Shown here: positions 2,918 to 61,979 of the stretch, piece after piece | How positions within the stretch are numbered: the first letter of the stretch is position 1 | Layout: each line of letters opens with the position of its first letter | From: an uncultured Fibrobacteraceae bacterium | GTDB taxonomy: Bacteria; Krumholzibacteriota; Krumholzibacteriia; LZORAL124-64-63 | Assembly: GCA_964389015.1 (NCBI GenBank) | Contig: CAYMCR010000008.1 | Coordinates: forward strand, 312 to 64,311 | Direction of reading: 5' to 3' | DNA: 64,000 bases | Notes under the pieces: model-generated | Database searches by the model: none | What the model saw: only the letters and a program-made list of their open reading frames with translations | What the model was told of the DNA's origin: nothing | Program-made: the position numbers and the translations under genes

Positions 2918-3417
2918 TCATCACCTCCGGCAGCAACCGGCGTCAGCATGACCACGGCCTGGGCGGTTACGCACTCGCCCCGCCCCTCGGGTCCGACACC
3001 CTCTCCCCTTGTGGCCTTAACCGAGACCGCGCCCGCCGGTACGCCGAGAGCCCCGGCCAGGGCGGTGCGCATCTCGTCCGCGCGGGGGGCGATGCGCGGC
3101 TGTTCCGTGATCACGGTCGTATCGACGTTGCCGACCCGCCAACCAGCGTCCGCCACCAACCGCGTGGCCCGCACCAGCAGATCCAGGCCCGCGGCGTCCG
3201 CCCAGGCGGGATCGGTATCGGGAAAATGACAACCGATGTCGCCCAGGGCCGCGGCGCCCAGCAGGGCGTCGATCACGGCGTGCGCTACGGCGTCACCGTC
3301 CGAATGACCGACAGGACCGACCGGGCAAGCGGGGAAGTGCACTCCGCCCAAGCGGCAAGCCCTGCCTTCCGACAGGAGATGTCGGTCCCAGCCAAAGCCG
3401 ATCCTCACGACACTCAC
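2914..3417 (-). CDS. ispF: 2-C-methyl-D-erythritol 2,4-cyclodiphosphate synthase
   Basis: 167 aa. IGFGWDRH ... GHSDGDAVAHAVIDALLGAAALGDIG motifs of IspF. Confidence 0.93.
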   Translation of the reverse strand: MSVVRIGFGWDRHLLSEGRACRLGGVHFPACPVGPVGHSDGDAVAHAVIDALLGAAALGDIGCHFPDTDPAWADAAGLDLLVRATRLVADAGWRVGNVDTTVITEQPRIAPRADEMRTALAGALGVPAGAVSVKATRGEGVGPEGRGECVTAQAVVMLTPVAAGGDE

Positions 3418-23249: not shown

Positions 23250-23269
23250 TCGGCAACGACGGACCCGAA

Positions 23270-23312
23270 CACGACGAGGGCGCCCCCGGGGGCGCCCTCG
23301 TTGCGTTACGGT
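23270..23312. terminator. GC-rich perfect palindrome acting as a bidirectional terminator between convergent genes
   Basis: cgacgagggcgcccccgggggcgccctcgttg is a 14-bp perfect stem with no loop, lying between the 21546..23249 (+) stop and the 23323..23811 (-) stop. Confidence 0.5.
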
Positions 23313-23322
23313 CGGAAAGCGA

Positions 23323-23811: not shown

Positions 23812-23920
23812 CCCCCGAATAAAGGTGCATAATCAAAATACTCTGCTTTTAACTAGCTACGCAATAGTTGTTTGCAAAATGCACCGGGTATTACAGCCCA
23901 GGGCGAATCAACTGCACCGT

Positions 23921-25633: not shown

Positions 25634-26748
25634 GCTGTATTCCTCTTGAAACGTGTCACGAGTTCATCCAGGGGACATTCTCCCAGGAAGCGGATCAACT
25701 CGACGGCCAGTTCCCAGGCCACGACCGCCTCGGCCACCACGCCGGCGGCCGGGACCACGCAGATGTCCGACCGTACCCAGGAGCCGCGCTTGGCCTTGCC
25801 GGTCTTCAGATCCACGCTGCGCAATCCCTTGCGTTGGGTGGAGATGGGCTTGACGTAAGCCCTGGCGCGGACCGGTTCGCCGTTGGTGACGCCGCCTTCC
25901 AGCCCGCCGGCGCGGTTGGTTTCGCGCTTCACGCCGCCGCTGCCGTCGGGGAAGAGTTCGTCGTGCGCCGATTGGCCGTCGCGGGCGCTGACCGCCACGC
26001 CGTCGCCGATCTCGGCGGCCTTTACGCTGGGAATCGTGACCAGGGCCGCCGCCAGAGCCGCGTCCAGTCGCCGGTCAGGCTGGGCGTAGGTGCCCAGTCC
26101 CGCCGGAACACCGAAAGCGATCACTTCGGTCACGCCGCCGAGGGTCACGCCCTCTGCGCGCGCCGCGTCGATGCGCGCGACCATCTCCGGCTCGGCCTTG
26201 CGGTCCAGGCAACGCAGAGGTGTGCCCTTGCGCACGCGGCGCAGCCTCGTCAAGGTGGGCTCCGGTCCGTGCGCCTCCAGGCCGCCCATCGACACGGTAT
26301 GGCTCCAGACCTCGATGCCCATGGCCCGGAGCAACTTCTTGGCGCAGGCGCCGACGGCCACCACACCGGCCGTGGAACGGGCGCTGGCACGTTCGGCCAC
26401 CGGCGCGAAGCCGTGGTAGCCATAGCGCTGGCGACCGGCCAGATCGGCGTGTCCCGGTCGCGGCACCGGCCAGTCGGGGTGGGGCTTGCCGCCGCGCGCG
26501 TCGAAATCGCGGTTCTTGATCACGATGGCCAGGGGCGAGCCGAGGGTCCGTCCCTTCCAAAGCCCCGCCGGGATCAGGCAGGTGTCGTTCTCGATGGATT
26601 GGGCGCGCGGGCCGCGGCCGTAGCCCTCGAGTCGGCGCGCGAGCTCGGTGTCCAGGTCGGCCTCGCGCAAACGCAGGCCGGCCGGGAAGCCCTCGATCAC
26701 CGAGACCAGGGCCCGGCCGTGGCTCTCACCCGCGAGCAGGTATCTCAT
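25630..26748 (-). CDS. aroC: chorismate synthase
   Basis: 372 aa starting MRYLLAGESHG, the canonical AroC N-terminus. 4-nt overlaps with tyrS and aroA. Confidence 0.93.
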   Translation of the reverse strand: MRYLLAGESHGRALVSVIEGFPAGLRLREADLDTELARRLEGYGRGPRAQSIENDTCLIPAGLWKGRTLGSPLAIVIKNRDFDARGGKPHPDWPVPRPGHADLAGRQRYGYHGFAPVAERASARSTAGVVAVGACAKKLLRAMGIEVWSHTVSMGGLEAHGPEPTLTRLRRVRKGTPLRCLDRKAEPEMVARIDAARAEGVTLGGVTEVIAFGVPAGLGTYAQPDRRLDAALAAALVTIPSVKAAEIGDGVAVSARDGQSAHDELFPDGSGGVKRETNRAGGLEGGVTNGEPVRARAYVKPISTQRKGLRSVDLKTGKAKRGSWVRSDICVVPAAGVVAEAVVAWELAVELIRFLGECPLDELVTRFKRNTA

Positions 26749-28073
26749 GTCTCTGTGCCTCCACGCTGCAGGTCTTCGAGGATCGCGAAGAAGTCCGGGA
26801 ATGATACCGCCACGCAGGCGTCGTCGTCCAGCAACACTCCCCCGCGCGAGGCCAGCGCGGCCACGGCGAAGGCCATGGCGATGCGATGGTCGCCCCGCGT
26901 AGACACCGCCGCGGCCTGCCGGGTGGGATAGCCGTCCGGATTGCCGACGATGTCCAGGCCGTCCTCGTGCACCGTTACCTCGACGCCCAGCGCACGCAGA
27001 CCGGCCGCCGTCGTCTCGAGGCGATCGGATTCCTTGTAACGCAGTTCCTTCGCATCACGGATGCGGGTGACACCCTCGGCGCGGCCGGCCAGCGCGGCCA
27101 GCAGGGGCAGCTCGTCGATCATGGCCGGGATGCCGGGGCCCGAGATCTCGCAGGCCCGCAGCGCGCCGTGGTGGGCACGGACCTCGCCCACCGGCTCGAC
27201 CGCCCGGCCCGTCTGCGGGCGGATCTCCAGTCCAGCCGCCATGTCATCCAGGACATCCAGGAAGCGCGCGCGGGTGGGATTGAACATCAAGTCGCGGATC
27301 TCGATCCCGCTGCCGGGCACCAGTACCGCGGCGGCCAGCAGGAAGGCAGCACTCGACGGGTCGCCCGGCACTGTCATGTCCAGAAGTGTCAGGGGGCGCC
27401 CCGGCTGGAGAGTGCAACGGTCGTCGCCGGTCCGGAGATCGGCGCCCATGGCCGCCAGCATCTTCTCGGTGTGATCGCGCGAAGCACCGCCGCCGGCCAC
27501 GACTGTCTCGCCGGCGGCGCAGAGACCCGCCAGCAGCAGGGCCGACTTGATCTGAGCCGAAGCCACGGGCAGGCGGTAGTCGATGCCGCGCAGGGCCGCG
27601 CCGCTGATCACCAGCGGCAGGCGTCCCTCGTCCTGCTCGTAGTCGATGCGGGCACCCATTAAGCGCAGCGGATCGACCACCCGGGCCATGGGACGTGATC
27701 TCAGACTGGCGTCGCCGTCGAGTCGCGCGCGGACCCGGCGACCGGCCAGCAGCCCCATCAAAAGCCGTGTAGTGGTCCCGCTGTTGCCGCAATCGATGTC
27801 CACCACGGGCGCATCGGAGGCGACCGCCCCGACGACCGGGAACGACCCCGGCCCGATCGAAAGCTCGCCGCCCTCGCGCCGCACCTCGGCCCCCAGAGCC
27901 TCGACGGCCGCCAAAGAGCGACCGGTATCCTCGGCCTCCAGCCAGCCCCGAATCCGGCTTACGCCGCCAGACAAGGGCGCAAAGAGCGCCGCCCGGTGTG
28001 AAACGGACTTGTCCCCCGGCACTTTCACGGCGCCGAGCAACGGACCCCTGGCAGGTTCGATCAAACGCGACAC
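26745..28073 (-). CDS. aroA: 3-phosphoshikimate 1-carboxyvinyltransferase (EPSP synthase)
   Basis: 442 aa. KVPGDKSVSHRAALFA motif of EPSP synthase. Confidence 0.93.
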   Translation of the reverse strand: MSRLIEPARGPLLGAVKVPGDKSVSHRAALFAPLSGGVSRIRGWLEAEDTGRSLAAVEALGAEVRREGGELSIGPGSFPVVGAVASDAPVVDIDCGNSGTTTRLLMGLLAGRRVRARLDGDASLRSRPMARVVDPLRLMGARIDYEQDEGRLPLVISGAALRGIDYRLPVASAQIKSALLLAGLCAAGETVVAGGGASRDHTEKMLAAMGADLRTGDDRCTLQPGRPLTLLDMTVPGDPSSAAFLLAAAVLVPGSGIEIRDLMFNPTRARFLDVLDDMAAGLEIRPQTGRAVEPVGEVRAHHGALRACEISGPGIPAMIDELPLLAALAGRAEGVTRIRDAKELRYKESDRLETTAAGLRALGVEVTVHEDGLDIVGNPDGYPTRQAAAVSTRGDHRIAMAFAVAALASRGGVLLDDDACVAVSFPDFFAILEDLQRGGTET

Positions 28074-28147
28074 GTTTCACCTTTCCGGTGGACTGCAACT
28101 TCGTCGAATCCGCAACGTAGCCGACTGCTCAAACGAAGGCAACCGCT

Positions 28148-28369
28148 GCTTGAACGGATACATACTCCTAACGGCATGCAAAAGGCGCTGGAGGTGGGCG
28201 GCTCTCCCGCTGGGCGTCTGAAGGAGTCCGCAGCCAAGGAGGGCGGAGGGCTCCGAATGCCGAGCGAGCAGACGACAGGAAGTCGTCTGCGAGCGCCCCG
28301 CCGGGAGAGCCGACCGCCTCCATCACCGCTCTCCCTGGCATGCCGTCAGGAGCATGTATCCGTTCAAGC
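28148..28369. repeat. 220-bp nested imperfect palindrome (about 70-nt arms around a 75-nt core with its own hairpin) in the aroA/MATE divergent intergenic region
   Basis: Arm 28148-28217 (gcttgaacggatacatactcctaacggcatgc ... ggcggctctcccgctgggcg) is the reverse complement of arm 28293-28369 (cgccccgccgggagagccg ... gcatgccgtcaggagcatgtatccgttcaagc). Only a few mismatches, several of them G-U compatible. The inner hairpin is gacgacaggaagtcgtc. Confidence 0.7.
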
Positions 28370-28413
28370 AACGCTTGTCTCACCCGGAGTCCGCACCCTA
28401 TCTTGCGTGAATC

Positions 28414-29820
28414 ATGAACGAAGCGACCCGCAGTCCCCTGAACCTGCTGCGCATCCACCACGGACGCGAGATCGTCGCGCTGGCCACGCCCATCGTGATG
28501 ACCACGCTTTCGATGACGCTCATGTGGACGGTGGACACGATCTTCCTGGGCCACTTCTCGAGCCTGGCTCTCGGTGCGGCGGGCCTGGGCGGTATTCTGA
28601 CCTGGGCCGCCTACAGCCTGTTCAACAACCTCAGCCGGATCAGCAACACCTTCGTCGCCCAGGCCCACGGCAAGGGCGACGACGAAACCGTCGGGCACTA
28701 CACCTGGCAAACGGTCTATCTTTCGTTGATCACGGGGACGCTGCTCACCGTTGCCGGCTACTACAGCTACGAGTTCCTGCCTCTGATCAAGAATCCGCCC
28801 GCGGTAACGGATGCCACCTACGTCTACATCAAGTGGCGCACCATGAGCGCGGTGTTCACCCAGGTGCTCTTCGCCCTCACCGGCTACTTCCAGGGCCGAC
28901 GCGACGTGCGCACGCCCATGTGGGCCGGCATCTTCGCCAACGCGCTCAACGCCGTGCTCGACGCCTGGTTGATCTTCGGCTGGTCGGGCCTGGAGCTGGG
29001 CGGCGCGCAGCTGCTTGCGATGCCCGCCATGGGCGTCAAGGGCGCAGCCATCGCCACGAGCATCGGCACCACCGTCAACGCGCTGATCCTGATCGTGGCG
29101 GCCGTCCTGCCCCGCGAGCACCGCCGACGCTACCGCATACACGTGCCCCGGCGCCTCGATCCGCGTGTCGTGCTGGAGATCGTGCGTGTCGGACAGCCCT
29201 CGGCGCTGGAGGGATTCGTGGACATGAGTTCCTTCGCGGTCTTCACGTCCTTGATCGGGCGGGCGGGCGCCGTGCCGCTGGCCGCCAGCCAGATCACCAT
29301 CCAGCTGCTCTCGTTCTCCTTCATGCCCATGTGGGGGCTGACGACCGCCGGCTCGGTCCTGACGGGCAACGAGGTAGGCGCCGGACGGCCGGACCGGGCG
29401 GCCTCGTACGGCCGGCAGGTCTACAAGCTGGGCATCTACTACAGCCTGGTCCTGGTCGCCATCTACCTGGTCGCGCGCGGGCACATGTTCCGGATCTTCA
29501 CCGACGATCCGGCCGTACTCGTCTTCGCGGGCACGCTGGTGGTGATCGCCGCCGGGTTCCAGTTCGCCGACGGCATGCGCATGGTCGGCAGCGGCATCCT
29601 GACCGGCGCCGGCGACACCCGCCCCGTCATGCTGGTCACCATGTTCATCATGTGGGGACTGTTCCTGCCCATGACCTGGTACCTGATCGTGCAGCAGGGC
29701 GGCGACGTCACCACCGCCTGGCTGGGCGGCTCGGTCTGCTACCTGCTCCAGGCAGTCGCCCTGTGGGGACGCTTCCAGTCGGGCCGCTGGCAACAGGTGC
29801 GCATCTTCCGCCGGGACTGA
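28414..29820 (+). CDS. MATE family efflux transporter (NorM-like)
   Basis: 468 aa with 12 predicted TM helices and the typical MATE N-terminal region (ALATPIVMTTLSMTLMWTVDTIFLGH). The overlapping long ORFs in other frames are GC artefacts. Confidence 0.88.
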   Translation: MNEATRSPLNLLRIHHGREIVALATPIVMTTLSMTLMWTVDTIFLGHFSSLALGAAGLGGILTWAAYSLFNNLSRISNTFVAQAHGKGDDETVGHYTWQTVYLSLITGTLLTVAGYYSYEFLPLIKNPPAVTDATYVYIKWRTMSAVFTQVLFALTGYFQGRRDVRTPMWAGIFANALNAVLDAWLIFGWSGLELGGAQLLAMPAMGVKGAAIATSIGTTVNALILIVAAVLPREHRRRYRIHVPRRLDPRVVLEIVRVGQPSALEGFVDMSSFAVFTSLIGRAGAVPLAASQITIQLLSFSFMPMWGLTTAGSVLTGNEVGAGRPDRAASYGRQVYKLGIYYSLVLVAIYLVARGHMFRIFTDDPAVLVFAGTLVVIAAGFQFADGMRMVGSGILTGAGDTRPVMLVTMFIMWGLFLPMTWYLIVQQGGDVTTAWLGGSVCYLLQAVALWGRFQSGRWQQVRIFRRD

Positions 29821-29892
29821 CGCCGCGGCCGGCGTGACGAAGCCCCGGGATATCCCGGGGCTCCGCCTCTCTTGCCCGAATGCTACAGGTAC

Positions 29893-31014
29893 TCAGCGAT
29901 AGATACTCTTGACGCTGCCCCAGTCCAGATCGGCGTTGGACATTGGCGCGTCGATCGTGATCGTGACCAGGCTGCAGGAGCCCGAATCGAAGCCGTCCAC
30001 GAAGAGATAGTACCAGCCGTCGGCGGGTATGACCCATTCGGGATCGCCGTCGGGTGGGATGTGCTCGTAGCCATCCCCGATCGTGTCGTCGGAGCCGATC
30101 ACACAGGTACCGGTCGGGTCGATGCAATTGGTCGCCACCCACAGCGAGGCGTCGTGGCTGCCCTGCATCGACACGATGAAGGGATCGCCCTGCAGCAGGT
30201 GGATCTTGTAGACCACGTCCCGGCCCTCGGAGGGATAGCCCGTACAGGCGTTGCCCATTTCGCCGGCGGTGTAGTCGTCGGTGGCCGGGCACAGGTCGAT
30301 CTCGAAGACCGCCAGGCCCTGCTCTCGCAGGTCGATGGCGTTTTCGCAGAGGTTATTGGCCGGGGGCGGCGGCGGTGGCGGCGGATCGTAGCCGGTGCCG
30401 TCGTCGACCATCACGGCGTCCAGGTAGTGGGAGTTGGCGTTGAAGCCCACGTAGCGGAAGGCGATCTCCACGGTCTGACCGTCGTAGAGGGACAAGTCCA
30501 CGAAGTACTTCTCGAACACGTAATGACCGCCGCCGCCGGCAGTCGAATCCCAGTCGAAGACGACAATGCCGTTGATTTCCACGGTCTCGACAGCGTCGTC
30601 GGCCCACTCGGTCTCGCGGTCGCCGGCCATCCAGAAGCTCAGCACGTATTCGTCGCCGGCCACGTCGACCGTCTGCATGAAGGAGATCGATTCGTCCTGG
30701 GAGATCGTTTCGCTCCATCTGATGTAAGCGGCGAAGTCGCCCTCGAGGCTACCACCGTCGATCGCCAGCTGCTGCCAGGTCTCGTCGCTGTTGGTGATGG
30801 CGGCCCAACCGCTCGGAGGCACGGCCACCTCGAAGCCCTCGAAGTAGGCGCGGGGACCGAACGCCGGACCGTGCAGTCGGTTCATCATCCCGAACGTCTG
30901 GCCGTCGGTGCGCTGCTGGTCCTTCGCGACGACCCCCGACGCCGCCAACGCGACCAGCAGTAACACGACCATCCATGATCCTGTCCTCATATCCATCCCT
31001 TTCGCCCGAGACAA
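29893..31014 (-). CDS. secreted protein: N-terminal choice-of-anchor-J-like domain, poly-Pro linker, C-terminal Cys-containing module ending WGSVKSIYR
   Basis: Signal peptide. FEGFEVAVPPSGWAAITNSD resembles the start of the choice-of-anchor J domain. PPPPPPPP linker. The C-terminal ~130 aa is homologous to the C-termini of the 31481..32473 and 44799..45371 products. Confidence 0.65.
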   Translation of the reverse strand: MSRAKGMDMRTGSWMVVLLLVALAASGVVAKDQQRTDGQTFGMMNRLHGPAFGPRAYFEGFEVAVPPSGWAAITNSDETWQQLAIDGGSLEGDFAAYIRWSETISQDESISFMQTVDVAGDEYVLSFWMAGDRETEWADDAVETVEINGIVVFDWDSTAGGGGHYVFEKYFVDLSLYDGQTVEIAFRYVGFNANSHYLDAVMVDDGTGYDPPPPPPPPANNLCENAIDLREQGLAVFEIDLCPATDDYTAGEMGNACTGYPSEGRDVVYKIHLLQGDPFIVSMQGSHDASLWVATNCIDPTGTCVIGSDDTIGDGYEHIPPDGDPEWVIPADGWYYLFVDGFDSGSCSLVTITIDAPMSNADLDWGSVKSIYR

Positions 31015-31416
31015 TCAACGTGACGCGTCGATACACGCGACCCGTCTCCTTGATAACCTGTATCCCATTATTATCGGCATGAGAATTGATAATTTTACAA
31101 GATTCTGCGATTAATAGCCCTGCAAGTGGCTCCCAAAACCGCCTCCGCCAGATATGCCAATATATGACAACATGTTACAAAGAGCCGCCACGTAGCTGGG
31201 CCACCACTTATATTGCACAGTACCGCCCGGATTGTCCATGGCGGCGGAGCCGCCGGGCCGAGCCATCACAACATCCACTGGTCAGGCCAACTATTCAGCT
31301 TACGGTCCCGCCATCAGGGTCCGTAGAGGACTTGCACCTTCAAGTCATCGACCGGACGCCATATCCAGCCGAACGGTGCTTACACACCACGCGCCATGCC
31401 TGGCGCACAAAGAAAG

Positions 31417-31480: not shown

Positions 31481-32473
31481 CTAGCGCCACAGGGCCTTGA
31501 CCTCACCCATGGTCATCGCCTCGTTGGCGATGGCACCATCACCCGATGTGAAATTGAGTTCGTAGGTGCCGCAGCAGTCATCATAGGCGTCGATGACCAG
31601 GTAGAACAGGGCATCCACACCCGTGTCGTTCGTGAACGGCATGTTCTCGAACGTGTCCGGGTACACGGCGTCCATGTAGCCGACGCAGTTGACGGGCTCC
31701 AAGCAGGCGTCCATCACGCGCAGACTGGCGTCGCAAGTGTGAATGACATCAGCCTGGAAGGTCGAGCCGGCGGGCATGAACACGCCGTAGTAGTCTTCCT
31801 GACCGTCGGACAGGTACTGGGTCGGGGTCGGCGGAATGATCACACACGTGCCGGCCGGAGTGTTGTACCCGTCGCAGGTGTCGCCAACGAAGATGCCGGT
31901 GCCGGTAACATCGATGACGTCCGCACAGAAGTCGAACGGGATGTACAGCCACGCACTGAAGCTGGCATCGAAGAAGAAGTCGCCGAAGCCATACTCGCCG
32001 TCGAGCCACATCCAGATCTCGCCATCCCAGCCACCGGTACCGGTCACGGAACCGCCGGAATCCAAGGTGCCCCAGGAAAGGCCCTCAACAAATTCCTCGC
32101 CGCAGCCTGTCGTGGAGTAGAACCAGTCGACATAGCCACCCGCGGGGTGGACCCAGGTGAAGTTCCAATCCCAGCCATCAGCGCTGGCGGGGAACGTGTA
32201 ATGGAAGACGACCTCGCCGCCGGTCCAGATAAAGTAGCTGGCACCAAAGTAGTCATCCACGTTGCCGACCGCCGGCATGTACATGAACGGGTTGCTGTAG
32301 GGATTGGTCAGTTCGGTCAGGCCACTGCAGTCCAGAGCGCCGCGAGAGTTGGACGCCTGGGGATTCTTGATCTCCTTGGTCCCCTTCTGCGCTTCGATCG
32401 TAGCAGCGAAAGCCACTCCGGTCATCATCGCAACAACCGCTACCACGGCCATCAGCTTCATCAAGTTACGCAT
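31481..32473 (-). CDS. secreted protein with the shared C-terminal Cys-containing module (ends MGEVKALWR)
   Basis: Start at MRNLMKLMAVVAVVAMMTGVAFA (signal peptide). The C-terminal block YLVIDAYDDCCGTYEL ... GEVKALWR aligns with YLFVDGFDSGSCSL ... WGSVKSIYR of 29893..31014. The upstream 27 codons of the ORF are unlikely to be translated. Confidence 0.65.
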   Translation of the reverse strand: MRNLMKLMAVVAVVAMMTGVAFAATIEAQKGTKEIKNPQASNSRGALDCSGLTELTNPYSNPFMYMPAVGNVDDYFGASYFIWTGGEVVFHYTFPASADGWDWNFTWVHPAGGYVDWFYSTTGCGEEFVEGLSWGTLDSGGSVTGTGGWDGEIWMWLDGEYGFGDFFFDASFSAWLYIPFDFCADVIDVTGTGIFVGDTCDGYNTPAGTCVIIPPTPTQYLSDGQEDYYGVFMPAGSTFQADVIHTCDASLRVMDACLEPVNCVGYMDAVYPDTFENMPFTNDTGVDALFYLVIDAYDDCCGTYELNFTSGDGAIANEAMTMGEVKALWR

Positions 32474-32767
32474 GAACGTTCCCCCTTGCATGGGTTGGGT
32501 GGAAGTGCGAGCCTCCCCGTCATGGGGAAAACTCTCAGAAACCTTGAGCTCCATGCCCTACCATCAAAAATTTGTGATGGTTTTGGCCTCTTGAGTGCTA
32601 CAACTCTAACATATTTCTGCAACACAATGCAATAGCATAATCCAGAAATGACAGTTTTTTTTGTTCTCATTAGACAGTATTGCAATCAATAAAGTTACGA
32701 TATCGTTGTTGAAGAAGAAAACCAATACGGTGTAAAAGGGTCGTTGATCAGAAATACCCGCGAGTGA

Positions 32768-38022: not shown

Positions 38023-38109
38023 CGTAATCTGCCGCTCTTGCCTGGACGCATCCGGTGGTCTAGTGTTGGCGGGACGAAGATCGCATCCTGCTCAAGATAA
38101 GGACAGATC

Positions 38110-38775
38110 ATGACCGCACACGGCCCGGATGCCAAGATACTTCCCGTGGACCTGCCCGCGGCAGACGAGTTGCTGCCCATTCTCTGGCAAGTCATCGAGA
38201 ACTGGCACGAAAAGGAACACCTGGTACAGGGCTGGGACGACGCCCTGCGGATCCTGCCGCCCGAACACGTCGGCTGGGCCGGCCTGGCCGAGCTGCTCCA
38301 ACTCATCAACACCTTCCAGTGGCACGAGGAGGACCGCAGCCGCGCCCACGACGACGACAGCGACGTCCTCGCCGCGGTCAAGCACTCCATCGACGAATCG
38401 AACGCGCGCCGCGTCAAGACCATCGAGCTCTTCGACAGCCAGATCATGCTGGTGCTGGCCTCCGCGTCTTTGCCCCTGGAATCCGCGCCGCTGCACTCCG
38501 AATCGCCGGCCAGCATCGTGGACCGGATCACCGTGCTCGCCCTCAAGCTCTACCATATCCGCGAGGAACTCTCCACCGCCGGCGGCACCATCGACGAGGC
38601 CATCCTCCATTCGCGCCTCGAGAGCCTCAAGGAGCAGATGGACGACCTGGCCGGCTGCCTGGACAGCCTGTTCCTGGATATCGCCGCCGGCTTGCGCAGC
38701 ATCAAGCTCTACAAGCAGGTAAAGGTCTACAAGGATCCCGCCACCGGGCGCTACCGGTCGGGACTGGAGGACTGA
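38110..38775 (+). CDS. hypothetical helical protein (DUF4254-like?) immediately upstream of the GlnE-like gene
   Basis: 221 aa, acidic, predicted all-alpha. The family assignment is from memory only. Confidence 0.4.
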   Translation: MTAHGPDAKILPVDLPAADELLPILWQVIENWHEKEHLVQGWDDALRILPPEHVGWAGLAELLQLINTFQWHEEDRSRAHDDDSDVLAAVKHSIDESNARRVKTIELFDSQIMLVLASASLPLESAPLHSESPASIVDRITVLALKLYHIREELSTAGGTIDEAILHSRLESLKEQMDDLAGCLDSLFLDIAAGLRSIKLYKQVKVYKDPATGRYRSGLED

Positions 38776-49033: not shown

Positions 49034-49377
49034 TCGGACGCGGTGACGTGTGGTGGGCGAACTTACCTCCACCCAGCGGTTCGGGTCCCGGTTTCCGCCG
49101 TCCCGCCGTCGTGGTTTCCGCGAACTCCTTTAATCGCAGCGGGATCGGCACGATCATCTTGGTCATTCTGACGACGAACATGTCACGAGCGGACGCACCA
49201 GGGAATGTACGCTTGAACCGTCGGGATACCGGCCTGACACGCAACTCGGTAGCGAACGTGACCCAACTCGTGACCCTCGACAAACACAGGTTGATCGAAA
49301 AGGTCAAACGCCTCCCCCACCCCACCATGGCCAAGCTCGACTCCGGCCTACGCCAGGCCCTCTCTCTGAAGTGTTGA
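49027..49377 (+). CDS. mazF: type II toxin, MazF/PemK-family endoribonuclease
   Basis: 116 aa. RGDVWWANL ... RPAVVVS ... is the classic PemK/MazF N-terminal strand pair. Confidence 0.8.
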   Translation: MVIGRGDVWWANLPPPSGSGPGFRRPAVVVSANSFNRSGIGTIILVILTTNMSRADAPGNVRLNRRDTGLTRNSVANVTQLVTLDKHRLIEKVKRLPHPTMAKLDSGLRQALSLKC

Positions 49378-49386
49378 AAGGGCGAC

Positions 49387-49458
49387 CCGGATGAGAAGAC
49401 ACCCTCTGACCGGATGCGTGGCGCGTCGTATCCGGTCAGAGGGTGTCTTCTCATCCGG
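49387..49458. terminator. 29-bp perfect-stem hairpin (14-nt loop) between convergent mazF and the S8 peptidase gene; bidirectional terminator candidate
   Basis: ccggatgagaagacaccctctgaccggat gcgtggcgcgtcgt atccggtcagagggtgtcttctcatccgg, then cgcgtttt. It produces the mirrored spurious 'MRRHPLTG' ORFs on both strands. Confidence 0.65.
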
Positions 49459-49469
49459 CTCCCGCGTTT

Positions 49470-61582: not shown

Positions 61583-61979
61583 CCGTGGCCTCGCCCGAGA
61601 GCACGCCGTTGACCACCTTCATCAATTTATCCGGGTCAATGGGTTTCTCGACAAAACCGTCCGGTTTACGCGTCCGATACCGGTCAACGATATCGCCCCA
61701 ATCGATACCGAGCTGATCCTTGATACCGGTGACCATCACCATGGGAATGTTTTTGGTGGCATCATTGGCGCGCAGCTTCGTGAAGAGCTGGATCCCCGTC
61801 CGCCCCGGCATCATCAGGTCGATCAGGATGATGTCGGGCGGTGACTCCAGGATGAGCTGTTCACCCGAAACCGCATCGTTGGCGACCCGCACCGAGAAAT
61901 CGTTCTCCTCGAGAATGGACGACAGGAAAGTCGTCAGGTCCACCTCGTCATCGATTACCACGGCAGTTCTCGCTGGCAT
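61560..61979 (-). CDS. stand-alone response-regulator receiver (CheY-like)
   Basis: 139 aa. VVIDDE ... DIILIDLMMPGRTG ... KNIPMVMVTG receiver motifs (Asp acceptor in IDLMMP). Confidence 0.85.
   Translation of the reverse strand: MPARTAVVIDDEVDLTTFLSSILEENDFSVRVANDAVSGEQLILESPPDIILIDLMMPGRTGIQLFTKLRANDATKNIPMVMVTGIKDQLGIDWGDIVDRYRTRKPDGFVEKPIDPDKLMKVVNGVLSGEATDGEVLHG

What the first reader, a model, noticed from the sequence alone, without database searches (positions are those of the whole stretch)
28148..28369. 220-bp nested palindrome between aroA and the MATE efflux gene
Two ~70-nt arms (28148-28217 and 28293-28369) are reverse complements of one another, with only a few substitutions. 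Several of those substitutions would still pair as G-U in RNA. The arms enclose a 75-nt core that contains its own short hairpin, gacgacaggaagtcgtc. The right arm ends 44 nt before the MATE start codon. A structure of this size in a divergent promoter region is not a simple terminator. It could be a long structured 5' leader or riboregulator of the efflux pump, a MITE-like mobile palindrome, or a cruciform-forming regulatory site. The G-U-compatible mismatches favour selection at the RNA level.
Basis: seen in the sequence. Interest (0 to 1): 0.6.

Follow-up and report, generated by a model that had tools for sequence, protein, structure and literature searches.

The report
Dispersed hairpin repeat between two promoters
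The palindrome is real, but it is most likely one copy of a previously undescribed family of hairpin-forming repeats sitting between the aroA and efflux-pump promoters, not an RNA switch that controls the pump.

Summary
Window 28137-28380 is a ~245-bp nested inverted repeat that is unique in the window, with fold z = -10 on both strands.

It is probably not a MATE leader. Conserved Bacteroidota-type promoter boxes (TTG, then TAnnTTG) lie outside the palindrome on both sides. The MATE -7 box ends 9 nt before the ATG.

The inner 169 nt (28175-28343) belongs to a sharply bounded family:
- a 31-bp stem, P1
- an asymmetric apex with two hairpins whose unpaired bases are 85% purine and GGA-rich
- a C-rich tail

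Copies sit at the same site in four related species and at at least four unrelated intergenic sites in related metagenomic contigs. Of 56 pairs, 32 show double changes, and 98% of cells are paired. P1 diverges about as fast as 4-fold sites.

Four lineages have lost the centre of the element. More distant orthologues lack it altogether. Rfam has no match.

My best reading (0.5) is a REPIN/MITE-like repeat that is a passenger at this locus, with arms kept complementary by templated correction. The main rival (0.25) is a small RNA with a GGA-rich, protein-binding apex.

The parts
28113..28119 (-). Inferred -7 promoter box of aroA (TACGTTG on the minus strand). It lies inside the block GCAACGTAG, which is conserved in all clade orthologues.
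   Evidence: The TAnnTTG motif lies just upstream of operon-first genes in the window. The block is conserved in L009, L012, L015, L017, L019, L028 and L037.
28137..28147 (-). Outermost arm segment, containing the inferred aroA -33 box (TTG on the minus strand = CAA at 28140-28142, 20 nt from the -7 box).
   Evidence: The conserved block GGCAACCGCT is present in all orthologues. It is an inverted near-copy of the MATE -33 region.
28148..28179 (.). Left outer arm. It is locus-specific and evolves fast, but stays complementary to 28338-28369.
   Evidence: Complementarity scores z = 25 against shuffles. The sequence is unrelated to the outer arms of copies at other loci.
28175..28343 (+). The inner family element, as matched by the covariance model: P1 stem, two-hairpin apex and C-rich tail.
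   Evidence: Model R1 scores 158 bits (E = 1.6e-39) on the + strand and 30 bits on the - strand. It aligns with nine other copies.
28184..28214 (+). Left strand of P1, which pairs with 28297-28327.
   Evidence: Of its 31 pairs, 22 show changes on both sides across copies.
28223..28254 (+). Hairpin A: a 7-bp stem, a GGA/GGA-type 3x3 internal loop, a 3-bp stem, and the hexaloop AAGGAG (ACGGAC in most copies).
   Evidence: Consensus fold and pair counts. Five of its 10 pairs show double changes.
28264..28294 (+). Hairpin B with its flanking GAGCG repeats. The stem-loop is 28268-28290 with loop AGGAA.
   Evidence: The motif CGACAGGA[A/T/G]GTCG is present in all 10 copies; it is invariant in A3 apart from the variable loop base.
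28297..28327 (+). Right strand of P1.
28328..28337 (+). Unpaired C-rich tail (GCTCTCCCTG). It is homologous to the CTTCGCCCC tail of the copies at other loci.
   Evidence: Alignments. It appears as a bulge on the right arm.
28338..28369 (.). Right outer arm.
28370..28380 (+). Outermost arm segment, containing the inferred MATE -33 box (TTG at 28375-28377, 21 nt from the -7 box).
   Evidence: The conserved block GCAACGCTTGTC is present in all orthologues.
28399..28405 (+). Inferred -7 promoter box of the MATE gene (TATCTTG). It ends 9 nt before the ATG at 28414, which implies a nearly leaderless mRNA.
   Evidence: CTAT[C/G]TTGC is conserved in all clade orthologues. The distant orthologue L020 has GGTATTTTGCTACGATG at the same place.

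Best explanation
The palindrome has three nested layers.

Layer 1, the centre (28175-28343), is one copy of a dispersed, sharply bounded, non-coding hairpin element of about 165 nt. It has a 31-bp stem (P1), an asymmetric apex with two small hairpins, and a short C-rich tail. I read this as a non-autonomous, REPIN/MITE-like repeat that entered the aroA-MATE intergenic region in the ancestor of this clade.

Layer 2 is a locus-specific pair of outer arms, 28148-28179 and 28338-28369.

Layer 3, outside those arms, is the two divergent promoters, which are themselves inverted near-copies of one another.

So the element lies upstream of both promoters. At this locus it is a passenger, not a regulator of the pump.

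The arms stay complementary mainly through a DNA-level process. A change in one arm is copied into the other by intramolecular template switching, also called quasipalindrome correction. The same hairpin-forming tendency causes frequent deletions of the centre.

The conserved, purine- and GGA-rich apex is probably what a protein recognises on the folded + strand. For a mobile element, that protein would be the mobilising enzyme acting on single-stranded DNA.

Shown: the family, its structure, its dispersal, the position of the conserved promoter-like boxes, the deletions, and the near-neutral rate of P1.

Inferred: that those boxes are the promoters in use, mobility, template switching, and protein recognition of the apex.
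For: Family and dispersal. A core-pattern scan of metagenome contigs found the same element in the orthologous loci L025 and L028 and in four other contexts (L023, L026, L035, L036). One of these sites, between a D-Ala-D-Ala carboxypeptidase gene and a tricorn protease gene, was confirmed in an independent assembly (L038) and is empty in a relative with 81% protein identity (L040). Homology stops sharply at GGCAAAG... and ...CTTCGCCCC.

Structure. 98.2% of cells are paired against 78.6% in shuffles. Of 56 pairs, 32 changed on both sides, and 0 of 500 shuffles reached that value.

Not a leader. TAnnTTG boxes sit just upstream of operon-first genes in the window. The -33 and -7 blocks are conserved outside the palindrome in every orthologue. 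There is no sigma-70 promoter or intrinsic terminator.

Dispensable at this locus. On the MATE tree the full element occurs in both subclades, while L013, L015/L016, L037 and L019 carry different deletions of the centre. The outgroups have none.

DNA-level maintenance. P1 identity between species is 65-79%, about the same as 4-fold-site identity in MATE (63-77%). Even so, intact copies have 0-3 non-Watson-Crick pairs out of 56. Point mutation followed by selection for compensation would be far slower than neutral, or would leave many mismatched intermediates (inference from population genetics). Template switching is documented to homogenise inverted-repeat arms (PMC5941160). REPINs show the same hairpin with compensatory changes, and excisions that leave a few bases behind (PMC3116915). 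Compare L012 with L013, where exactly P1 plus the apex (147 nt) is missing at a CCGG microhomology and the tail remains.

No link to transcription direction. The element's orientation relative to its neighbouring genes is inconsistent: 2 co-directional, 2 convergent, 1 divergent. Assemblies often break inside the element.
Against: No target-site duplication was found, and no two copies are near-identical. P1 differs by about 20-25% between copies.

Copy number per genome is unknown. There is only one copy in the 64-kb window and none in about 100 kb of other sequence from the lineage.

No transposase, RAYT or integrase is seen in the window or in the 357 kb held.

Conservation is inside-out compared with MITEs and REPINs: the apex is the most conserved part, and the middle of the stem the least.

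Two strand asymmetries point to a function of the folded + strand, which could equally be RNA. Unpaired apex bases are 85% purine, with 4-7 unpaired GGA per copy against 0-2 TCC. Wobbles are 13 G·T against 3 A·C.

The large L035/L038 difference (19% in the element against about 0.35% in the flanks) may be only a short recombination import.

The promoters are inferred from motifs, not mapped.
Confidence: 0.5

Rival explanations
1. The inner element is a gene, or a transcribed module, for a structured small RNA. In this reading the long P1 stem clamps and protects an apex that displays several unpaired GGA motifs. That apex would bind and titrate a GGA-recognising RNA-binding protein, working like the Csr/Rsm sponge RNAs. 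The several copies would be redundant paralogues.
For: Both apical loops fit the CsrA/Rsm-type site CANGGANG. Hairpin B reads GACAGGAUGUC and hairpin A reads CCACGGACGG (the consensus is from my own knowledge of SELEX and RsmE studies).

Each 80-nt apex has 4-7 GGA motifs, nearly all in unpaired positions, against 0-2 TCC. Unpaired positions are 85% purine on the + strand. Wobbles favour the + strand, 13 to 3.

The small hairpins A and B covary. The apex is more conserved than 4-fold sites, 74-87% against 63-77%. The only Rfam similarity for the apex is a far sub-threshold match to rsmX (9.6 bits against a 56-bit threshold).
Against: No promoter or terminator was found around any copy. Orientation relative to neighbouring genes is inconsistent. 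G·U is almost absent from P1: 2 in about 217 pairs of the intact copies.

P1 evolves at the neutral rate, which selection on RNA pairing alone does not explain. The element has been lost repeatedly at this locus. No csrA was seen in the 357 kb held, although this is uninformative for a whole genome. No Rfam family reaches threshold.
Confidence: 0.25
2. The palindrome acts as double-stranded DNA at this locus. It would be a cruciform-prone spacer or protein-binding site between the back-to-back aroA and MATE promoters, setting their spacing or insulating them from each other's supercoiling.
For: The whole intergenic region is symmetric, from -7 box to -7 box. The box-to-box distance is held at 285-288 nt in all five full-length orthologues despite heavy sequence divergence. 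The two promoters are inverted near-copies (z = 3-14 in seven of eight loci, not significant in L028). Both strands fold equally well.
Against: Four related lineages deleted the centre and kept both promoters, at box-to-box distances of 73-162 nt. More distant orthologues manage with intergenic regions of 82-127 nt. The same inner element occurs at gene 3' ends at unrelated loci. The conserved apex is asymmetric and strand-biased.
Confidence: 0.08
3. This is the first reader's preferred reading: a long structured 5' leader or riboregulator of the MATE efflux mRNA.
For: The element is close to the MATE start (44 nt) and has the same sense as MATE. It has strong predicted structure.
Against: Conserved -33/-7 boxes lie downstream of the palindrome, and the -7 box ends 9 nt before the ATG. 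The element is absent upstream of MATE orthologues at 65-70% identity and has been deleted in four closer ones. It occurs at loci with no MATE gene. Only 2 of the 10 arm mismatches in the window are G·U on this strand. No Rfam cis-regulatory family matches.
Confidence: 0.03
4. An invertible DNA switch (inverton). The long inverted repeats would be recombination sites, and the asymmetric centre would flip to change expression.
For: Inverted repeats flank an asymmetric segment that lies between two promoters.
Against: The centre has the same orientation relative to aroA and MATE in all five species, and in seven contigs of the window's own species from six further samples. No recombinase gene is nearby. 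The centre carries no promoter-like boxes.
Confidence: 0.02

Closest known systems
REPINs (REP doublets forming hairpins) mobilised by RAYT transposases
   Same: Both are extragenic, non-coding and dispersed. Both are long hairpins in single-stranded DNA or RNA, with compensatory changes on the two sides. REPINs persist at orthologous sites over long periods. Their excision events remove the hairpin and leave a few terminal bases (PMC3116915); compare L012 with L013.
   Different: In REPINs the conserved parts are the two terminal REP 16-mers and the middle is variable. Here the most conserved part is an asymmetric apex with two direct-orientation hairpins, and the middle of the stem is the least conserved. 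No RAYT gene was seen, and no high copy number has been shown. The element is about 165 nt (about 245 nt with the outer arms), against about 70-110 nt for REPINs.
Palindromic MITE-like repeats such as Neisseria Correia elements and enterobacterial ERIC/IRU (from my own knowledge)
   Same: Both are 100-170-bp imperfect palindromes in intergenic DNA. Both fold as long hairpins if transcribed. Both can sit next to promoters or contribute to them. Both vary in presence between relatives.
   Different: Those families have conserved terminal inverted repeats, target-site duplications (TA for Correia elements) and many near-identical copies. None of these was found here.
Csr/Rsm protein-sponge sRNAs (CsrB, RsmX/Y/Z) and the TwoAYGGAY motif (RF01731)
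   Same: Both carry several GGA motifs in hairpin loops and single-stranded linkers. The two apical loops fit CANGGANG / AYGGAY-like sequences. These sRNAs also occur as multi-copy families.
   Different: No Rfam match reaches threshold: rsmX scores 9.6 bits against 56, and TwoAYGGAY does not appear at E <= 10. No promoter or terminator was found. The 31-bp (up to about 100-bp) closing stem is not a feature of those RNAs. Whether CsrA is present in this lineage is unknown.
Quasipalindrome correction: concerted evolution of inverted-repeat arms by template switching
   Same: It explains arms that diverge between species yet stay complementary within each copy, and the deletions of the centre (PMC5941160).
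   Different: That process has been documented mostly for short inverted repeats. It does not explain dispersal to new loci or the conserved asymmetric apex.

Membership tests
cis-regulatory 5' leader / riboswitch of the MATE gene | Lies inside the 5' UTR, downstream of the promoter. | tested here: not met
   The conserved TTG (28375-28377) and TATCTTG (28399-28405) boxes lie between the palindrome and the ATG. The promoter is inferred from motifs, not mapped.
cis-regulatory 5' leader / riboswitch of the MATE gene | Conserved upstream of orthologous genes. | tested here: not met
   Present in 5 lineages. The centre is deleted in 4 (L013, L015/16, L037, L019). It is absent from the orthologues at 65-70% identity, L020-L022.
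cis-regulatory 5' leader / riboswitch of the MATE gene | Matches a described RNA family. | tested here: not met
   Rfam 15 at E <= 10 gave only a sub-threshold generic long-hairpin hit to MIR1437 (43 bits against 168). Nothing was found for the copies at other loci.
MITE | Multiple copies dispersed in a genome, with sharp boundaries. | tested here: inconclusive
   At least 5 distinct loci across related metagenomic contigs, with sharp boundaries. There is only 1 copy in the 64-kb window and no whole genome was available.
MITE | Target-site duplications flanking the element. | tested here: not met
   No consistent direct repeat at the boundaries of 5 loci. GCATGC flanks the window's inner element, but it is itself a palindrome and is not shared by the orthologues.
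MITE | Near-identical copies and conserved terminal inverted repeats. | tested here: not met
   Copies differ by 20-35% in P1. Only the base (AAGGCC/GGCCTT) and the top of the stem are conserved.
REP/REPIN | A hairpin formed by two inverted conserved REP units separated by a variable spacer. | tested here: inconclusive
   The hairpin with compensatory changes is met. However, the conserved parts are the apex and the base of the stem, not two terminal REP units.
REP/REPIN | A cognate RAYT (Y1/HUH) transposase gene in the genome, flanked by repeats. | not testable with these tools
   None in the window. tblastn against the 357 kb held found none either. The rest of the genome is not available.
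Csr/Rsm sponge sRNA | Several GGA motifs exposed in loops or single-stranded regions. | tested here: met
   4-7 GGA per 80-nt apex, nearly all unpaired. Both apical loops fit CANGGANG.
Csr/Rsm sponge sRNA | An independent transcription unit with its own promoter and terminator. | tested here: not met
   No sigma-70 or TAnnTTG box upstream, and no terminator tail (flanks).
Csr/Rsm sponge sRNA | A CsrA/RsmA gene in the same genome. | not testable with these tools
   tblastn against the 357 kb held was negative, but the genome is unsampled.
TwoAYGGAY RNA motif (RF01731) | Scores with the family covariance model. | tested here: not met
   It does not appear at E <= 10 in scans of the window region or of the L026 apex.
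Inverton (invertible promoter) | Both orientations of the segment between the repeats are present in populations. | tested here: not met
   A single orientation in all five species and in all contigs of the window's own species.
Intrinsic terminator | A G+C-rich hairpin followed by a T tract, downstream of a gene. | tested here: not met
   No terminator-like site. The flanking genes diverge from it.

The most novel reading that the evidence does not exclude
The family would be a new kind of self-maintaining hairpin replicator, and it would work both as DNA and as RNA.

As DNA, it spreads to new intergenic sites. It keeps its long stem perfectly paired by self-templating while the stem sequence drifts at the neutral rate. 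It also nucleates outward growth of palindromes. At this locus that growth would have duplicated one promoter in inverted orientation, creating the bidirectional aroA/MATE promoter pair.

As RNA, its conserved GGA-rich two-hairpin apex would act as a decoy for a GGA-binding regulator in a phylum where no such post-transcriptional system is known.
Probability: 0.12. Interest if true: 0.75.

Novelty: new variant of a known kind. Interest (0 to 1): 0.45.

Why it matters
If the main reading holds, this adds a repeat family from a barely studied, uncultured lineage whose relatives are labelled Candidatus Krumholzibacteriota. The family inverts the usual MITE/REPIN pattern: the apex is conserved and the stem drifts at the neutral rate yet stays paired. 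That would be a clean natural example of inverted-repeat arms evolving in concert.

It is also a warning for RNA-motif discovery. Abundant 'compensatory' covariation can arise in palindromic DNA without selection at the RNA level.

For annotation, the MATE pump here should not be described as riboregulated. If the apex instead turns out to be a GGA-displaying RNA, it would point to a Csr-like regulatory layer in this group.

Tried and rejected
- **Rfam.** The window region, four other-locus contigs and the isolated apex were scanned. Only generic long-hairpin microRNA models and a 9.6-bit rsmX match appeared, all far below threshold.
- **Genome-collection scan.** The outer-arm pattern found one chance match in a Bacteroidaceae MAG, and the window's genome is not in that collection. 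This used the only genome scan, so the MITE census within a genome could not be done.
- **Viral, plasmid and phage collections.** Viral contigs were scanned with three core or junction patterns; one gave 5 hits that the covariance model rejected, and the other two gave none. Plasmids and phages gave nothing by blastn.
- **Stem as a guide against foreign DNA.** Two 22-nt P1 sequences have no match in viral contigs. P1 variants are also homologous to one another rather than acquired.
- **Second copy nearby.** The covariance model found no second copy in the window or in about 310 kb of fetched loci beyond the known sites.
- **Sigma-70 promoters and intrinsic terminators.** None. The strict motif CTANNTTGC is not a general promoter motif, but the looser TAnnTTG is.
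- **CsrA, IS200 TnpA and RAYT.** tblastn against everything held was negative.
- **Transition/transversion spectrum of compensated pairs.** I tried this as an RNA-versus-DNA discriminator. Two ways of counting gave 10:19 (by hand) and 32:21, so I dropped the argument.
- **Hypermutation or re-insertion from L035 versus L038.** I weakened this reading after finding that the divergent tract extends into the 3' end of the PBP gene and that other short divergent clusters exist. That pattern fits a recombination import.

Full report
**The observation.** The sequence is as described, and slightly larger. The repeat finder reports arms 28137-28179/28338-28380 (43 nt, 88% complementary) and 28184-28214/28297-28327 (31 nt, 81% complementary) around an asymmetric centre. 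The region folds at -162.5 kcal/mol on the + strand and -168.9 kcal/mol on the - strand. The z-scores are -10.2 and -9.8, and none of 200 shuffles does as well. It lies between aroA (26745-28073, minus strand; EPSP synthase, E = 3e-104) and a MATE transporter gene (28414-29820, plus strand; MatE, E = 2e-50). The arm sequence occurs nowhere else in the window. Rfam gives only a sub-threshold match to a plant microRNA precursor, which is a generic long hairpin.

**Source and orthologous loci.** The window's MATE protein is encoded on 15 marine-metagenome contigs. Seven places were fetched, and the intergenic region is identical in the six that cover it. Relatives at about 63% identity are labelled Candidatus Krumholzibacteriota. 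I fetched orthologous aroA/MATE loci at several distances.
- *Full-length palindrome.* L028 (90% MATE identity), L009/L010 (89%), L017/L018/L025 (86%) and L012 (82%) carry a full-length palindrome at the same place. The outer-arm sequence is almost unrecognisably diverged but still self-complementary, and the inner core is conserved.
- *Centre lost.* L015/L016 (two samples), L037 and L013 have lost the centre but keep the outer arms. L013 has the same MATE protein as L012. L019 keeps only a perfect 16-nt inverted repeat.
- *No palindrome.* Orthologues at 65-70% identity have intergenic regions of 82-127 nt with no palindrome.

On a MATE tree the full form occurs in both subclades. It was therefore present in the clade's ancestor and was truncated independently at least four times.

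**Promoters.** No sigma-70 promoter or intrinsic terminator is found. The Bacteroidota-type -7 motif TAnnTTG occurs 26 times in the window, and about ten of these lie just upstream of operon-first genes in the correct orientation (the consensus is as used in PMC4747536, found, and from my own knowledge). Two of them flank the palindrome: TACGTTG at 28113-28119 (minus strand) and TATCTTG at 28399-28405 (plus strand). Each has a TTG 20-21 nt upstream. These blocks are the best-conserved intergenic sequence in all orthologues. The distant L020 has GGTATTTTGCTACGATG in the same place.

The MATE -7 box ends 9 nt before the ATG, so the mRNA should be nearly leaderless and the palindrome lies upstream of both promoters. 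This is an inference from motifs. The two promoter regions are themselves inverted near-copies (z = 3-14 in seven of eight loci), and the distance between the -7 boxes is 285-288 nt in all full-length orthologues.

**A dispersed family.** I scanned metagenome contigs with the conserved core pattern CGAGCGANCNNNCGACAGGANGTCG. It returned two orthologous loci and four contigs of one metagenome assembly (L023, L026, L035, L036) that carry the same core at other places. The remaining eight hits look like chance matches in coding DNA. That collection evidently lacks the window's own contigs, so abundance is underestimated.

These copies belong to the same broad lineage, because their neighbouring PBP gene has its relatives on the same large contigs as the MATE relatives. 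One site, between a D-Ala-D-Ala carboxypeptidase gene and a tricorn protease gene, recurs in an independent assembly (L038/L039) and is empty in a relative with 81% protein identity (L040). L039 and L009 come from the same sample at similar coverage (15.6x and 16.4x). One genome therefore probably holds at least two copies of different subtypes, which is an inference.

Homology between copies stops sharply at GGCAAAG... and ...CTTCGCCCC. The outer arms are locus-specific: strong at the aroA/MATE loci and L026 (z = 10-25), weak at L035 and L036 (z about 4), and absent at L038. Orientation relative to neighbouring genes is inconsistent. No copy occurs in viral contigs, plasmids or phages.

**Structure.** An alignment of eight copies gives this consensus:
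- P1, 31 bp
- a 4-bp P2
- hairpin A: 7 bp, a 3x3 internal loop, 3 bp, and a hexaloop A[C/A/T]GGA[C/G/T]
- hairpin B: 9 bp, with the pentaloop AGGA[A/T/G]
- a C-rich tail

Of all cells, 98.2% are paired against 78.6% in shuffles. Of 56 pairs, 32 changed on both sides, 0 of 500 shuffles reached this, and slid controls fell to 38-49% paired. A covariance model scores the + orientation at 150-181 bits and the reverse at 30-55 bits. It finds no further copy in the window or in about 310 kb of fetched loci. Among the ten copies, the window's is the most decayed, with 48 of 56 Watson-Crick pairs against 53-55 in the other full-length copies.

**RNA or DNA?** The evidence pulls both ways.

*For a DNA-level process:*
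- P1 identity between species (65-79%) is no higher than 4-fold-site identity in MATE (63-77%). P1 therefore evolves about neutrally, yet intact copies are almost perfectly Watson-Crick. Point mutation followed by selection for compensation cannot give a neutral rate without many mismatched intermediates. A templated double change can. Template switching between inverted-repeat arms is a documented homogenising process (PMC5941160).
- The deletions of the centre, the locus-specific outer palindromes, the lack of promoter or terminator, and the random orientation relative to genes fit DNA as well.
- REPINs show the same combination: a hairpin, compensatory changes, and excisions that leave a few terminal bases (PMC3116915). 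L013 lacks exactly P1 plus the apex (147 nt) at a CCGG microhomology and keeps the tail.

*For a single-strand function of the + strand:*
- Unpaired apex positions are 85% purine.
- Each apex carries 4-7 GGA motifs, nearly all unpaired, against 0-2 TCC.
- Both apical loops fit the CsrA/Rsm-type CANGGANG site.
- Wobbles are 13 G·T against 3 A·C.
- The apex is more conserved than 4-fold sites, 74-87%.

A repeat that acts as folded single-stranded DNA would reconcile both sets. A transcribed GGA-displaying RNA is the main rival.

**Within-species variation.** L035 and L038 differ at about 18 sites in 5.3 kb of flanks (about 0.35%) but at 36 sites in the 190-nt element (19%), plus a 140-nt indel. 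Six P1 pairs and two hairpin-A pairs are changed on both sides, and no paired position is left uncompensated. L038's hairpin A is of the type found at the L036 locus, and L035's is of the L023 type, which suggests exchange among copies. However, the divergent tract also covers the last 16 nt of the PBP gene, and other short divergent clusters exist. A short recombination import is therefore an adequate explanation.

**Verdict.** The riboregulator reading and its G-U argument are not supported: in the window's arms, 2 mismatches are G·U on the MATE strand, 5 are A·C and 3 are other. The MITE-like reading is the nearest, in modified form. The element is one copy, and a decaying one, of an undescribed REPIN/MITE-like hairpin family with an unusually conserved GGA-rich apex. 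It sits as a passenger between two promoters. Whether the apex works as single-stranded DNA or as RNA is open.

Noticed in passing
window 28106-28147 and 28370-28408: The aroA and MATE promoter regions (-33 and -7 boxes and the sequence between them) are inverted near-copies of each other in seven of the eight clade loci tested (not significantly in L028), including L019, which lacks the element (33/40 identity there). The more distant orthologues do not show this. One promoter may have arisen as an inverted duplicate of the other.
   Followed up: partly
window 49377-49468: A 42-nt-arm, 88% complementary hairpin with an 8-nt loop lies immediately downstream of the stop (49470) of a 1315-aa subtilase-like gene. 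It has no T tract and looks like a very long terminator-type hairpin.
   Followed up: no
window 23262-23313 and 29827-29876: Palindromes with 26-nt arms lie exactly between convergent gene pairs. The second is just after the MATE stop codon. They are probably bidirectional terminators without T tracts. The covariance model gives weak hits to such hairpins.
   Followed up: no
window, e.g. 15445, 21467, 23834-23840, 31158-31164, 38093-38139, 61623-61629: TAnnTTG boxes lie a few to tens of nt upstream of start codons of operon-first genes. This suggests Bacteroidota-type promoters and frequent short or absent leaders in this lineage.
   Followed up: partly
L035:2191-2276: A perfect 31-bp hairpin with a 19-nt loop lies directly after the PBP stop codon. 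It is part of a ~140-nt segment that is absent from L038, although the PBP proteins are identical.
   Followed up: partly
L008, L011, L014, L016, L023, L039 (contig ends): Six independent assemblies break inside or at the edge of the element. This is the behaviour expected of a repeated or strain-variable sequence.
   Followed up: no
window 29893-31014 and 31481-32557 (minus strand): Two adjacent genes of about 360 aa have no Pfam match. The first contains a run of eight or more prolines. Both are conserved next to the MATE gene in all clade orthologues, followed by a TonB-dependent receptor gene.
   Followed up: no
window 28073 vs about 28040 (aroA start): Gene callers in different assemblies give aroA as 442 aa or 431 aa from identical DNA, so the true start, and hence the 5' UTR length, is uncertain.
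   Followed up: no
L026:5700-5959: Immediately to the right of that copy of the element, the contig turns sharply A+T-rich in an otherwise ~70% G+C contig, and it ends there.
   Followed up: no
L035 vs L038 (L035:713-791 and 3288-3315): Differences between these two near-identical strains are clustered in short tracts of 9-18% divergence. This is the pattern expected from short recombination imports from a diverged relative.
   Followed up: partly
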